Of a stretch of 64,000 bases of DNA, positions 40,401-43,400 are shown in pieces. Each line of letters starts with the position of its first letter. Within the stretch, counting starts at the first letter, position 1. The stretch is taken from assembly GCF_041886205.1 (NCBI RefSeq), contig NZ_CP169029.1; one strand, 5' to 3'. This DNA comes from Escherichia coli (lineage in GTDB: Bacteria > Pseudomonadota > Gammaproteobacteria > Enterobacterales > Enterobacteriaceae). The position numbers were made by a program.

Positions 40401-43400
40401 TGCTTTCCCCGCGTGGACGAGAAACGCAGGCGGATGTGCCTGCGTTTGAACCGCTGTTTGCCGACTCCGATTGTTCCGCAATGAGTAACACCTGGCGAGG
40501 TTCTCTGGAGTCATTGGCGTGGTTTATGCGCTACTGGCGCGATAATTTTTCTGCGGCTTACGATCTAAACCGGGTATTTTTAATCGGCAGCGATAACCTC
40601 TGCATGGCCAATTTCGGTCTGCGTGATATGCCAGTGGAACGCGATACCGCGTTGAAAGCGTTGCATGAACGCATCAATAAATATCGAAATGCACCACAAG
40701 ATGATAGCGGCAGTAACCTCTACTGGATCAGCGAAGGTCCGCGCCCTGGCGTCGGGTATTTTTACGCGTTGACGCCAGTTTATCTGGCGAACCGGTTGCA
40801 GGCGCTTTTGGGTGTCGAGCAGACCATCCGGATGGAGAACTTTTTCTTACCGGGTACGTTGCCGATGGGGGTTACCATTCTTGATGAAAATGGTCATACC
40901 CTGATTTCGCTTACCGGACCAGAAAGTAAAATTAAGGGCGATCCTCGCTGGATGCAGGAACGCTCCTGGTTTGGCTATACGGAAGGGTTCCGGGAGCTGG
41001 TGCTGAAGAAAAATCTGCCACCCTCATCGCTAAGCATCGTGTATTCGGTGCCGGTTGATAAGGTGCTGGAACGCATTCGCATGTTGATCCTTAACGCAAT
41101 TTTGCTGAATGTGCTTGCCGGAGCTGCATTGTTTACTCTCGCACGGATGTACGAGCGACGTATTTTCATTCCGGCGGAAAGCGACGCCCTGCGACTGGAA
41201 GAACATGAGCAGTTCAATCGCAAGATTGTCGCCTCCGCGCCAGTGGGTATCTGCATTTTGCGTACCGCTGATGGCGTCAATATTTTAAGTAACGAACTGG
41301 CGCATACCTATCTCAATATGCTTACGCATGAGGACCGCCAACGACTGACGCAAATTATCTGTGGGCAGCAGGTCAATTTTGTTGATGTCCTGACCAGCAA
41401 CAATACCAATCTGCAAATCAGCTTCGTCCATTCGCGCTATCGTAATGAAAACGTGGCCATTTGTGTGCTGGTGGATGTTTCTTCGCGCGTGAAGATGGAA
41501 GAGTCGTTGCAGGAGATGGCACAAGCAGCGGAACAGGCGAGCCAGTCAAAATCGATGTTCCTTGCCACCGTCAGTCATGAGCTGCGAACGCCGCTGTATG
41601 GCATTATCGGTAACCTGGATCTGTTGCAAACCAAAGAGTTACCGAAAGGCGTCGATCGTCTGGTGACGGCAATGAACAACTCTTCCAGCCTGTTGTTGAA
41701 AATTATCAGCGATATTCTCGATTTCTCGAAGATTGAATCGGAACAGTTGAAGATCGAACCGCGTGAGTTTTCACCGCGTGAAGTGATGAACCACATCACC
41801 GCCAACTATTTACCGCTGGTGGTACGCAAGCAGTTAGGCTTGTACTGCTTTATTGAACCGGATGTGCCAGTGGCCTTAAATGGCGACCCGATGCGTTTAC
41901 AGCAGGTCATCTCCAACCTGTTGAGTAACGCCATAAAATTCACCGATACCGGCTGTATAGTTTTGCATGTCCGCGCTGATGGCGATTATCTCTCTATCCG
42001 TGTTCGCGATACCGGCGTGGGGATTCCGGCGAAAGAAGTGGTGCGCTTGTTTGATCCCTTCTTCCAGGTCGGAACGGGCGTACAGCGAAACTTCCAGGGG
42101 ACCGGTCTGGGTCTGGCGATTTGTGAAAAACTGATCAGCATGATGGACGGCGATATCTCGGTAGATTCAGAACCGGGAATGGGCAGCCAGTTTACCGTGC
42201 GTATTCCGTTGTACGGCGCTCAGTACCCGCAGAAAAAAGGCGTGGAAGGGTTGAGTGGTAAACGCTGCTGGCTGGCGGTCCGCAATGCGTCGCTCTGTCA
42301 GTTCCTGGAAACCAGTTTGCAGCGCAGCGGCATCGTCGTTACAACATACGAAGGGCAGGAACCGACTCCCGAAGATGTGTTAATTACTGACGAGGTAGTG
42401 AGTAAAAAATGGCAGGGTAGAGCGGTAGTGACCTTCTGTCGTCGCCATATTGGTATTCCGCTGGAGAAAGCGCCAGGGGAGTGGGTACACAGTGTGGCTG
42501 CCCCGCATGAGCTACCGGCATTGTTGGCGCGTATTTATTTGATCGAGATGGAGAGCGACGATCCTGCTAACGCTCTGCCGTCGACGGACAAAGCGGTCAG
42601 CGATAATGACGATATGATGATTCTGGTCGTGGATGATCATCCGATTAACCGACGTCTGCTGGCAGATCAGTTGGGATCGTTGGGCTATCAATGTAAAACC
42701 GCGAATGATGGCGTCGATGCGCTTAATGTACTTAGCAAGAATCATATTGATATCGTGCTTAGCGACGTCAACATGCCAAATATGGATGGTTACCGCTTGA
42801 CGCAACGCATTCGTCAGTTGGGACTGACGTTGCCGGTAATCGGAGTAACTGCTAATGCGTTGGCTGAAGAGAAGCAGCGGTGTCTGGAGTCCGGTATGGA
42901 CAGCTGCCTGTCGAAGCCGGTAACGCTGGATGTGATAAAACAGACGCTGACGGTATATGCCGAGAGGGTCAGGAAATCGCGGGAATCGTAGGACGGATAA
43001 GGTGTTTATGTCGCATCTGGCATTCAGTGCAAATGCCAGATGCGACGCTGACGCGTCTTATCTGGCCTACTTTGATGTAATCTGTTGAAATAATGGGAAT
43101 CGTAGGACGCATAAGGCGTTTACGCCGCATCCGGCAATCGGTGCAAATGCCAGATAAGACACTAACGCGTCTTATCTGGCCTACAGGTGATTAGTCTTTA
43201 TCTGCCGGACTTAACGTCACTGAAGAGAGATAATTCAGCAGGGCGATATCGTTCTCGACACCCAGCTTCATCATCGCAGATTTCTTCTGGCTACTGATGG
43301 TTTTAATACTGCGGTTCAGCTTTTTAGCGATCTCGGTCACCAGGAAGCCTTCCGCAAACAGGCGCAGAACTTCACTCTCTTTTGGCGAGAGACGCTTGTC

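What the first reader, a model, noticed from the sequence alone, without database searches (positions are those of the whole stretch)
42981..43184. Tandem ~90 bp BIME duplication whose first copy includes the last codons and stop of rcsC
Two direct repeats, each about 90 bp, start with GGGAATCGTAGGACG and end with CGCGTCTTATCTGGCCTAC, separated by about 24 bp. Each contains REP-type palindromes. The first copy begins within the final codons of rcsC (...S-R-E-S-stop), so the 3' end of the coding sequence is part of the repeated unit. This suggests the repeat expanded by duplication after insertion next to rcsC, and these structures may act as the convergent terminator or mRNA stabiliser for rcsC and rcsB.
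Basis: seen in the sequence. Interest (0 to 1): 0.3.

Follow-up and report, generated by a model that had tools for sequence, protein, structure and literature searches.

The report
REP (BIME-2) array behind rcsC
The two repeats are real and are an ordinary E. coli REP/BIME-2 palindrome array between the convergent genes rcsC and rcsB. It was copied locally together with the last codons of rcsC, it now varies from one to four copies among strains, and it is a known kind of element.

Summary
Window 42973-43070 and 43087-43184 are a 98-nt direct repeat, 86% identical, with a 114-bp period. Each copy holds one BIME-2 unit: an inverted y REP, an 11-nt S linker and a z2 REP. Both units pass the Rfam naRNA4 gathering score. 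The rcsC stop codon (TAG, 42989-42991) lies inside the conserved GTAG of the first REP.

The similarity goes beyond the generic REP consensus. It runs through the 15 nt before GTAG (12/15) and through the linker (9/11). Other REPs in the window match only one 36-40-nt palindrome at a time. The shared flank is ancestral rcsC coding sequence (Kluyvera has TCGCGGGAATAA with no REP), so copy 2 carries a decayed copy of the rcsC 3' end.

Among 5,426 complete E. coli genomes, 4,436 have the inter-copy junction and about 990 lack it. All nine single-copy loci examined are exactly 114 bp shorter. Thirty-two genomes have three or four copies. A 92%-identical Escherichia lineage also has the junction, so the duplication is old and the single-copy alleles are recurrent losses.

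Function is inferred. The array probably blocks 3' exonucleases and attenuates transcription of both mRNAs, standing where many relatives have an intrinsic terminator. It probably also dampens RcsC translation and binds gyrase. The element is ordinary and of low interest.

The parts
40142..42991 (+). rcsC coding sequence (949 aa, ends RKSRES, TAG stop at 42989-42991)
   Evidence: ORF list; translation; annotated as rcsC in all E. coli hits
42973..42991 (+). Last 19 nt of rcsC (GAAATCGCGGGAATCGTAG) that form the left end of repeat copy 1. The final GTAG is also the conserved REP tetranucleotide.
   Evidence: TCGCGGGAAT is conserved in Kluyvera rcsC, which has no REP.
42988..43022 (-). Unit 1, y-type REP. 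It reads GTAGG...GGCA on the + strand, and its palindrome is inverted relative to the z2 REP.
   Evidence: Rfam naRNA4 alignment; REP tail match; BLAST to the y REPs at 26839-26874
43023..43033 (.). Unit 1 head-to-head S-type linker, TTCAGTGCAAA
   Evidence: compare the REP325 linker ACGGTGCCGAC
43034..43070 (+). Unit 1, z2-type REP (TGCCAGATGCGACGCTGACGCGTCTTATCTGGCCTAC)
   Evidence: Inverted repeat I3
43071..43086 (.). 16-nt spacer specific to this locus (TTTGATGTAATCTGTT), origin unexplained
   Evidence: No significant similarity to either flank. The junction occurs once per genome.
43087..43105 (+). Decayed non-coding copy of the rcsC 3' end (GAAATAATGGGAATCGTAG, 16/19 identical to 42973-42991)
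43102..43136 (-). Unit 2, y-type REP
   Evidence: 94.6% identical to the y REP at 26838-26874
43137..43147 (.). Unit 2 S-type linker, ATCGGTGCAAA
43148..43184 (+). Unit 2, z2-type REP. Its left arm has changed to GATAAGACAC, which gives a perfect 12-bp palindrome.
   Evidence: Inverted repeat I4, 100% complementary
43191..43841 (-). rcsB coding sequence (216 aa), convergent with rcsC. Its stop lies 6 nt from the end of unit 2.

Best explanation
The feature is a two-unit BIME-2-type REP array in the 199-bp spacer between the convergent genes rcsC and rcsB of E. coli. Each 83-nt unit runs from GTAGG to CCTAC and consists of an inverted y REP, an 11-nt S linker and a z2 REP.

Shown: a 98-nt segment was copied locally. 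It comprises 15 nt of rcsC coding sequence, then the GTAG that holds the rcsC stop codon, then the whole unit. The second copy therefore carries a dead remnant of the rcsC 3' end. The event predates the diversification of E. coli. Since then the 114-bp period has behaved as a minisatellite, with spacers of 85, 199, 313 and 427 bp (1-4 copies), mosaic internal units, and single-copy alleles that arose several times on two-copy haplotype backgrounds.

Inferred from established REP/BIME knowledge, not tested here:
(i) On RNA, the hairpins sit at the 3' ends of both convergent mRNAs. They probably stop 3'-5' exonucleases after Rho-dependent termination further downstream. In this they stand where many related genera have an intrinsic, often bidirectional, terminator.
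(ii) The first hairpin starts at, or includes, the rcsC UAG. It probably slows termination and lowers RcsC yield, as reported for REPs closer than 16 nt to a stop codon.
(iii) On DNA, the array is a likely gyrase site between two converging transcription units.
(iv) Copy number itself is probably close to neutral.
For: Anatomy. Both units score 62.9 and 66.0 bits against Rfam naRNA4, whose gathering score is 59.5.

Similarity beyond generic REP. By direct reading, the flank matches 12/15 and the linker 9/11.

The flank is ancestral coding sequence. Kluyvera has TCGCGGGAATAA, Citrobacter ACGCGGGGATAA, and the Salmonella-like locus L104 ACGCGGGCATAA.

Population data: the junction is present in 4436 of 5426 genomes, at one place per genome. 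Nine single-copy loci are exactly 114 bp shorter. Thirty-two genomes give a one-piece match to a query that needs three copies; L102 and L103 have 3 copies and L101 has 4.

Recurrent change: the flanks of single-copy L094 are identical (0/560) to two-copy K-12, those of L003 are identical to two-copy L092, and L002 differs from L086 at 1/560. Unit bodies are copy-1-like, copy-2-like or mosaic.

Age: L005, only 92% identical over 3.6 kb, has the junction.

Function: no intrinsic terminator is found in the window. In 26 of 70 other Enterobacterales loci the spacer holds a GC hairpin flanked by an A and/or T run, and 16 of these are bidirectional. RNA folding gives z=-5.8 on the + strand and -7.9 on the - strand. 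Unit 1 folds at -47.8 kcal/mol with GUAG in the basal stem.

Literature: REPs closer than 16 nt to a stop codon lower translation (Liang et al. 2015, as cited in PMC12306157). [quoted passage not shown] BIME-2 arrays are gyrase targets (PMC6379681). BIME-2 copy number varies between strains (PMC3333891).
Against: No experimental 3'-end, ribosome-stalling or gyrase data for this locus were found.

The 16-nt spacer matches neither flank, so the first copying event is not a clean 114-bp tandem duplication.

Counts of base pairs kept across 17 distinct unit sequences do not separate the two strands or the two alternative folds (94.6% vs 91.2% and 89.8% vs 91.0%). There is therefore no evidence of selection on either RNA structure.

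About 18% of strains have one copy and 0.6% have three or four, which argues against any strong requirement for two copies.

No named close outgroup (E. albertii, E. fergusonii) was recovered, so the polarity rests on L005 and on divergent E. coli alleles.
Confidence: 0.8

Rival explanations
1. The two units are independent insertions of generic BIMEs, and their resemblance is only the REP consensus.
For: Each REP half also matches other REPs in the window at 87-95% identity over 36-40 nt.
Against: The alignment between the two copies is one ungapped 90-nt block. It includes the non-REP flank (12/15) and the linker (9/11), scoring 91.7 bits against at most 58 bits for any other REP. GGGAATCGTAGG occurs only at these two places. 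Strains differ by exact 114-bp steps.
Confidence: 0.02
2. Single copy is the ancestral E. coli state, and the two-copy allele is a later duplication that spread by recombination.
For: One group of single-copy alleles (L089, L091, L095-L098) has a wholly copy-1-like unit and somewhat distinct flanks. No named E. albertii or E. fergusonii locus was obtained.
Against: The 92%-identical lineage L005 has the junction, and so do the most divergent E. coli alleles L004, L085 and L099. Single-copy alleles with a copy-2-type unit (L094, L002) or a mosaic unit (L003) sit on flanks that are identical or nearly identical to two-copy alleles. That pattern fits deletions.
Confidence: 0.12
3. The first duplication, and later copy-number changes, were made by the REP-associated transposase TnpA_REP (RAYT) cutting at CT dinucleotides in and around the BIME and rejoining strands. 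RecA-dependent unequal crossing-over or replication slippage were not responsible.
For: In vitro, TnpA_REP cleaves linkers and flanking DNA at C|T up to hundreds of nt from a functional REP, and it joins BIMEs into multimers (PMC3333891). The copied segment includes non-REP flank, and a 16-nt spacer that a simple tandem duplication does not explain.
Against: The mosaic internal units in 3- and 4-copy arrays are what homologous unequal exchange predicts, and so are the single-copy alleles whose crossover points differ. CT dinucleotides are too common to be diagnostic. Nothing here tests the enzyme.
Confidence: 0.2
4. The units are genes for naRNA4-like, HU-binding nucleoid-associated RNAs, and that is their main role.
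For: Both units exceed the Rfam RF02564 gathering score on the + strand. REP325 units of the same architecture give HU-bound RNAs (PMC4550694).
Against: The Rfam model was built from the REP325 units (six 77-nt units; naRNA4 is one of their RNAs), so by inference any y-S-z2 unit may score above the threshold. No promoter is present. Nothing here shows a separate RNA or HU binding for this locus.
Confidence: 0.08
5. Copy number is a regulatory variable that tunes the amounts of RcsC and RcsB among E. coli lineages.
For: Copy number ranges from 1 to 4 at the 3' ends of both genes. A REP overlaps the rcsC stop codon in every allele.
Against: The REP at the stop codon is present whatever the copy number, so the translational effect should not change with it. 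The allele distribution (82% / 18% / 0.6%), with recurrent changes on near-identical flanks, looks like neutral minisatellite behaviour. No expression data exist.
Confidence: 0.08

Closest known systems
BIME-2 arrays of E. coli, e.g. REP325 between yjdM and yjdN (source of naRNA1-6)
   Same: The unit has the same architecture: y REP, short S linker with a CGGTGC core, and z2 REP, with a 77-nt core that matches Rfam RF02564. Units are arranged in head-to-tail arrays separated by a constant spacer. Copy number varies among strains.
   Different: There are two units here (1-4 in the species) against six in REP325, and the period is 114 nt against 100. The 31-nt tail-to-tail spacer is unique to this locus, and half of it is a decayed copy of the neighbouring gene's 3' end. 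The z2 REPs carry the CCAGAT/ATCTGG variant. The z2 of unit 2 has lost its stem mismatch.
REPs within 15 nt of a stop codon that down-regulate translation (Liang, Rudd and Deutscher 2015; nrdAB example)
   Same: The REP hairpin begins at the rcsC stop codon, so the distance is 0 and the TAG is part of GTAG. This is well inside the <16-nt limit.
   Different: Ribosome stalling, mRNA cleavage and tmRNA tagging have not been shown for rcsC. Here the REP overlaps the stop codon rather than following it.
3' stem-loops, including REPs, that define the steady-state 3' ends of Rho-terminated mRNAs and protect them from PNPase and RNase II
   Same: The hairpins are stable and have no U tract. They lie directly after a coding region, with no intrinsic terminator nearby.
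   Different: This element serves two convergent genes at once. No 3'-end mapping for this locus was available.
Bidirectional intrinsic terminators in the rcsC-rcsB spacer of other Enterobacteriaceae
   Same: They occupy the same position between the same convergent genes and presumably do the same job.
   Different: Those are a single GC hairpin flanked by an A run and a T run, in spacers of 38-90 bp. The E. coli element has no such runs and consists of repeated mobile-type palindromes.

Membership tests
REP (E. coli y and z2 types) | 30-40-nt imperfect palindrome | tested here: met
   Inverted repeats I3 (14 nt, 86%) and I4 (12 nt, 100%). The Rfam structure line pairs both halves of each unit.
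REP (E. coli y and z2 types) | Conserved GTAG tetranucleotide at the foot of the palindrome (PMC3333891) | tested here: met
   GTAGG at 42988 and 43102, and CCTAC ending at 43070 and 43184.
REP (E. coli y and z2 types) | Many copies per genome | tested here: met
   The REP tail pattern has 10 matches in the window against 0.44 expected. The query region matches a median of 6 places per E. coli genome.
REP (E. coli y and z2 types) | Extragenic location | tested here: inconclusive
   The array lies in the spacer, but the GTAG of the first REP overlaps rcsC by 4 nt and supplies its TAG stop.
BIME-2 | y and z2 REPs in opposite orientation, separated by a short S linker | tested here: met
   The linker is 11 nt with a GGTGC/AGTGC core, as in REP325.
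BIME-2 | Tandem copies that are well conserved within a locus, with copy number variable between strains | tested here: met
   86% identity between copies. Between 1 and 4 copies across 5,426 genomes.
BIME-2 | Flanking tail-to-tail motif of type s, l or r | tested here: inconclusive
   The spacer is unique to this locus and unlike the REP325 spacer, apart from the 8-mer GCGGGAAT. The consensus sequences for s, l and r were not available to me.
BIME-2 | Bound and cleaved by DNA gyrase in vivo | not testable with these tools
   This is known for a subset of BIME-2 arrays (PMC6379681). This locus is not named in the text I could read.
Rfam RF02564 naRNA4 | Covariance-model score at or above the gathering threshold (59.5 bits) | tested here: met
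   62.9 and 66.0 bits on the + strand; 40.3 and 45.0 bits on the - strand.
Rfam RF02564 naRNA4 | Discrete HU-bound RNA with a role in nucleoid condensation | not testable with these tools
   Shown only for REP325 (PMC4550694).
Intrinsic (Rho-independent) terminator | GC-rich hairpin followed by a U tract | tested here: not met
   0 sites. My own scan returned one marginal hit, the inner stem of the unit-1 z2 REP (5-bp stem, 4 T in the next 8 nt). I do not count it as a terminator: it is part of the REP palindrome and is not followed by a continuous T run.
REP-near-stop translational down-regulators (Liang et al. 2015) | REP less than 16 nt downstream of the stop codon | tested here: met
   The distance is 0; UAG lies in the basal stem or directly before it. 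The criterion is quoted in PMC12306157.
REP-near-stop translational down-regulators (Liang et al. 2015) | Ribosome stalling, mRNA cleavage and tmRNA tagging of the upstream protein | not testable with these tools
   No data for RcsC were found.

The most novel reading that the evidence does not exclude
The REP that overlaps the rcsC stop codon, together with the variable number of BIME units shared by the 3' ends of rcsC and rcsB, acts as a lineage-specific control on the ratio of sensor kinase to response regulator in the Rcs envelope-stress phosphorelay. Under this reading the 1-, 2-, 3- and 4-copy alleles differ in Rcs output, for example in capsule, biofilm and motility. A second, weaker possibility is that the BIME was first copied into this site through the microhomology GCGGGAAT, which it shares with the REP325 spacer.
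Probability: 0.08. Interest if true: 0.45.

Novelty: already known. Interest (0 to 1): 0.15.

Why it matters
It matters little beyond annotation. The locus is a clear example of three points already known in outline:
- BIME-2 arrays expand and contract like minisatellites.
- A local copying event can carry a piece of a neighbouring gene with it.
- REP arrays can occupy the position where related genera keep an intrinsic terminator between convergent genes.

The 85/199/313/427-bp length polymorphism could serve as a simple typing marker. The REP on the rcsC stop codon makes rcsC a convenient natural test case for the idea that REPs close to a stop codon lower translation.

Tried and rejected
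1. I tested whether the 16-nt spacer is a decayed copy of the rcsB 3' end, which a clean 114-bp tandem duplication across both gene ends would predict. Local alignments against both flanks in four allele types were no better than shuffles (p>=0.55). Rejected.

2. A synthetic three-copy query of 535 nt did not single out three-copy genomes, because two-copy genomes also gave 100% coverage in two pieces. A tighter 185-nt query worked.

3. I tried to decide which strand's RNA fold is under selection by counting kept base pairs in 17 distinct units. The values were 94.6% vs 91.2% for the two-hairpin fold and 89.8% vs 91.0% for the long hairpin. This is too close to call.

A protein search followed by contig look-ups gave one Salmonella-like locus, one E. 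coli locus and one distant genus.

5. The built-in terminator scan misses bidirectional terminators, because it pairs the A and T runs into the stem. I replaced it with my own scan.

6. The K-12 RefSeq record shows no repeat_region feature here, so I could not get the EcoCyc REP number.

7. The Liang et al. 2015 paper is not held, and no supplement naming rcsC was found.

8. The RRS elements (222-bp GC-rich repeats) were checked. They lie near dusC and lysO, not at this locus.
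Full report
**Observation.** The repeat finder reports a direct repeat of 98 nt at 42973-43070 and 43087-43184, 86% identical without gaps, with a start-to-start spacing of 114. The long ORF 40142-42991 encodes a 949-aa protein ending RKSRES*. It is annotated as rcsC in every E. coli hit. Its TAG stop lies at 42989-42991, inside copy 1. rcsB (216 aa) converges from the other strand, with its stop at 43191-43193. The spacer is 199 bp, as in K-12 MG1655. The window is E. coli; strain NT1F31 is 100% identical over 421 nt.

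**Anatomy.** Each copy contains an 83-nt unit running from GTAGG to CCTAC. On the + strand a unit reads as follows:
- a y-type REP of 35 nt (GTAGG...GGCA);
- an 11-nt linker (TTCAGTGCAAA in unit 1, ATCGGTGCAAA in unit 2);
- a z2-type REP of 37 nt in the opposite orientation (TGCCAGAT...CTGGCCTAC).

Both 77-nt cores exceed the gathering score of Rfam RF02564 (naRNA4) on the + strand, at 62.9 and 66.0 bits against 59.5. That model derives from REP325 (naRNA4 is one of the RNAs of its six 77-nt units). REP325 in K-12 has six such units with a 100-bp period and a constant 17-nt spacer. The feature is therefore a BIME-2-type array as defined in PMC3333891. No sigma-70 promoter-like site and no intrinsic terminator is found in or around it.

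**More than the REP consensus.** Other REPs in the window (near 18506, 20017-20054, 26860-26898 and 55046) match the units only over a single 36-40-nt palindrome, at 58 bits or less. None of those matches covers the flank or the linker. The two copies align with each other in one ungapped 90-nt block of 91.7 bits. The 15 nt before GTAG match at 12/15 (GAAATCGCGGGAATC against GAAATAATGGGAATC), and the linker matches at 9/11. GGGAATCGTAGG occurs only at these two places in the 64 kb.

**Which flank is the original.** The flank of copy 1 is functional rcsC sequence, and it is ancestral:
- Kluyvera rcsC ends TCGCGGGAATAA (SRE*) and has no REP downstream.
- Citrobacter sp. FP75 ends ACGCGGGGATAA.
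- A Salmonella-like locus ends ACGCGGGCATAA.
- Several more distant genera end RES*, REG* or REA*.

The flank of copy 2 is therefore a decayed, non-coding copy of the rcsC 3' end.

The nearest genera stop one codon earlier, at ...GGGNATAA, whereas E. coli reads ...GGGAAT-CG-TAG-G. It is thus likely, though not proven, that the BIME landed in or next to the old TAA stop. In that case Ser949 and the TAG come from the junction with the REP's GTAG. Pseudocitrobacter has TCGTAG without any REP, which keeps the alternative open: the GTAG may have been there first.

**Population and history.** A 55-nt probe across the inter-copy junction finds 4,436 of 5,426 complete E. coli genomes, with a median of one place per genome. 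The spacer is therefore specific to this locus, and about 82% of genomes have at least two copies. About 990 genomes lack the junction. The nine such loci I read are all exactly 114 bp shorter, with an 85-bp spacer.

A 185-nt probe that needs three copies gives a one-piece match in 32 genomes. Strains M18 and 14EC033 have three copies (313 bp), and MS 115-1 has four (427 bp). Internal units in these arrays are mosaics of copy-1-type and copy-2-type sequence. All of them carry the decayed rcsC tail and the same 16-nt spacer.

Single-copy alleles are of several kinds: copy-1-like, copy-2-like and mosaic. Three of them sit on flanks that are identical or nearly identical to two-copy alleles:
- YSP8-1 against K-12: 0 differences in 560 nt;
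- 02E060 against L092: 0 in 560;
- Nissle 1917 against L086: 1 in 560.

The losses have therefore happened repeatedly. The junction is also present in the most divergent E. coli alleles (L004, L085, L099). It is present too in L005, a genome labelled E. coli that is only 92% identical over 3.6 kb of rcsC-rcsB-rcsD and whose second unit is internally deleted. The duplication is therefore older than E. coli diversification.

**What remains unexplained in the structure.** A clean tandem duplication of 114 bp would make the 16-nt spacer (43071-43086) similar to the sequence before 42973 or after 43184. It is similar to neither (p>=0.55 in four allele types). The first event may therefore have been more complex. 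One possibility is TnpA_REP cutting at CT dinucleotides in flanking DNA and rejoining, as shown in vitro. Another is that the spacer has been replaced since. The later expansions and contractions use the whole 114-bp period and look like ordinary unequal exchange.

**How it most likely works (inferred).**

First, the RNA level. Both strands fold far better than shuffled sequence: z=-5.8 for the rcsC-sense strand and -7.9 for the rcsB-sense strand. No U tract follows any of the hairpins. In 26 of 70 other Enterobacterales loci the same spacer holds a GC hairpin flanked by an A run and/or a T run, and 16 of these are bidirectional. They include most of the close genera, such as Citrobacter sp. 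FP75, Enterobacter, Pluralibacter and Cedecea. Some Citrobacter and the Salmonella-like locus carry other REP pairs instead. In E. coli, steady-state 3' ends of Rho-terminated mRNAs lie just after stable stem-loops, REPs among them, which stop PNPase and RNase II (PMC6061677). The simplest reading is that the array does this job for both convergent mRNAs.

Second, translation. The first hairpin starts at the stop codon. In the minimum-energy fold of unit 1 (-47.8 kcal/mol), GUAG forms the basal stem. REPs closer than 16 nt to a stop codon have been reported to stall ribosomes and lower translation (Liang et al. 2015, as cited in PMC12306157). rcsC is an extreme case of that geometry.

Third, the DNA level. 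BIME-2 arrays are preferred gyrase sites (PMC6379681), which fits a position between converging genes.

None of these three roles was tested here, and I found no locus-specific data. The wide copy-number variation suggests that the number of units matters little.

**Comparison and novelty.** The element meets the tested defining features of REPs, of BIME-2 and of the Rfam naRNA4 model. It fails the test for an intrinsic terminator. Everything about its kind is known. The small locus-specific points are:
- the REP's GTAG doubles as the rcsC stop codon;
- the copied segment carries 15 nt of coding sequence;
- the 1-4-copy series is well defined.

I rate it as already known and of low interest.

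Noticed in passing
window 43148-43184 (compare 43034-43070): In unit 2 the left arm of the z2 REP reads GATAAGACAC instead of GATGCGACGC. This turns the imperfect palindrome into a perfect 12-bp one (I4 100% against I3 86%). It looks like a templated 'quasipalindrome correction'. It removes the stem mismatch that TnpA_REP needs for binding (PMC3333891). Most two-copy E. coli alleles have it in copy 2, but the divergent alleles L004, L085 and L099 do not.
   Followed up: partly
window 42988-43022: The copy-1 y REP of this strain differs from the K-12 copy by four C-to-T changes (GGCG>GGTG, ACGCC>ATGTC, TCCGG>TCTGG). All four keep G-U pairs in the rcsC-sense RNA and would be A-C mismatches in the opposite transcript. 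A wider count over 17 units did not show a clear strand bias.
   Followed up: partly
L100 2806-3385 (K-12 REP325) versus window 42978-42992: On its other strand the REP325 inter-unit spacer reads ...GTGCGGGAATTT|GTAGG. The rcsC end reads ...TCGCGGGAATC|GTAGG. They share the 8-mer GCGGGAAT, 1-2 nt from GTAG, although in rcsC this is ancestral coding sequence. This could be coincidence or microhomology used at insertion.
   Followed up: no
window 43071-43086: The 16-nt spacer between the copies has no significant similarity to the sequence on either side of the array. It is nevertheless carried unchanged in every internal period of the 3- and 4-copy arrays.
   Followed up: yes
L104 1960-2130; L008 and L071 spacers: A Salmonella-like genome and two Citrobacter species carry different, tail-to-tail REP pairs in the same rcsC-rcsB spacer. 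In L104 the REP starts 3 nt after the TAA stop. Other close genera carry a bidirectional intrinsic terminator instead. REPs seem to have colonised this spacer more than once.
   Followed up: partly
L005 2100-2254: In the 92%-identical 'E. coli' SCPM-O-B-8794 the second unit is collapsed to a single hairpin, GTAGGCCAGATAAGGCATTCGGCACTTATCTGGCCTGC. This is an internal deletion that fuses the outer arms of the y and z2 REPs.
   Followed up: no
window 42983-42985 (rcsC codon 947): This position is polymorphic. This window and many strains have GAA (Glu), while K-12 and others have GAT (Asp), giving ...SRES* against ...SRDS*.
   Followed up: no
window 46841-46934 (-): A MicF antisense RNA gene, 116.8 bits against Rfam RF00033.
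   Followed up: no
window ~18506-18542, 19965-20075, 26838-26924, 54958-55060: Other REP/BIME sites in the window, mostly tail-to-tail pairs with short linkers. The one at 18506 starts 6 nt after a TAA stop.
   Followed up: partly
E. coli genome hits H158-H161 (O169:H41 and related strains): Four genomes gave a two-piece, 170-bp match to the three-copy probe that overlaps rcsC. This may be another structural variant of the array.
   Followed up: no
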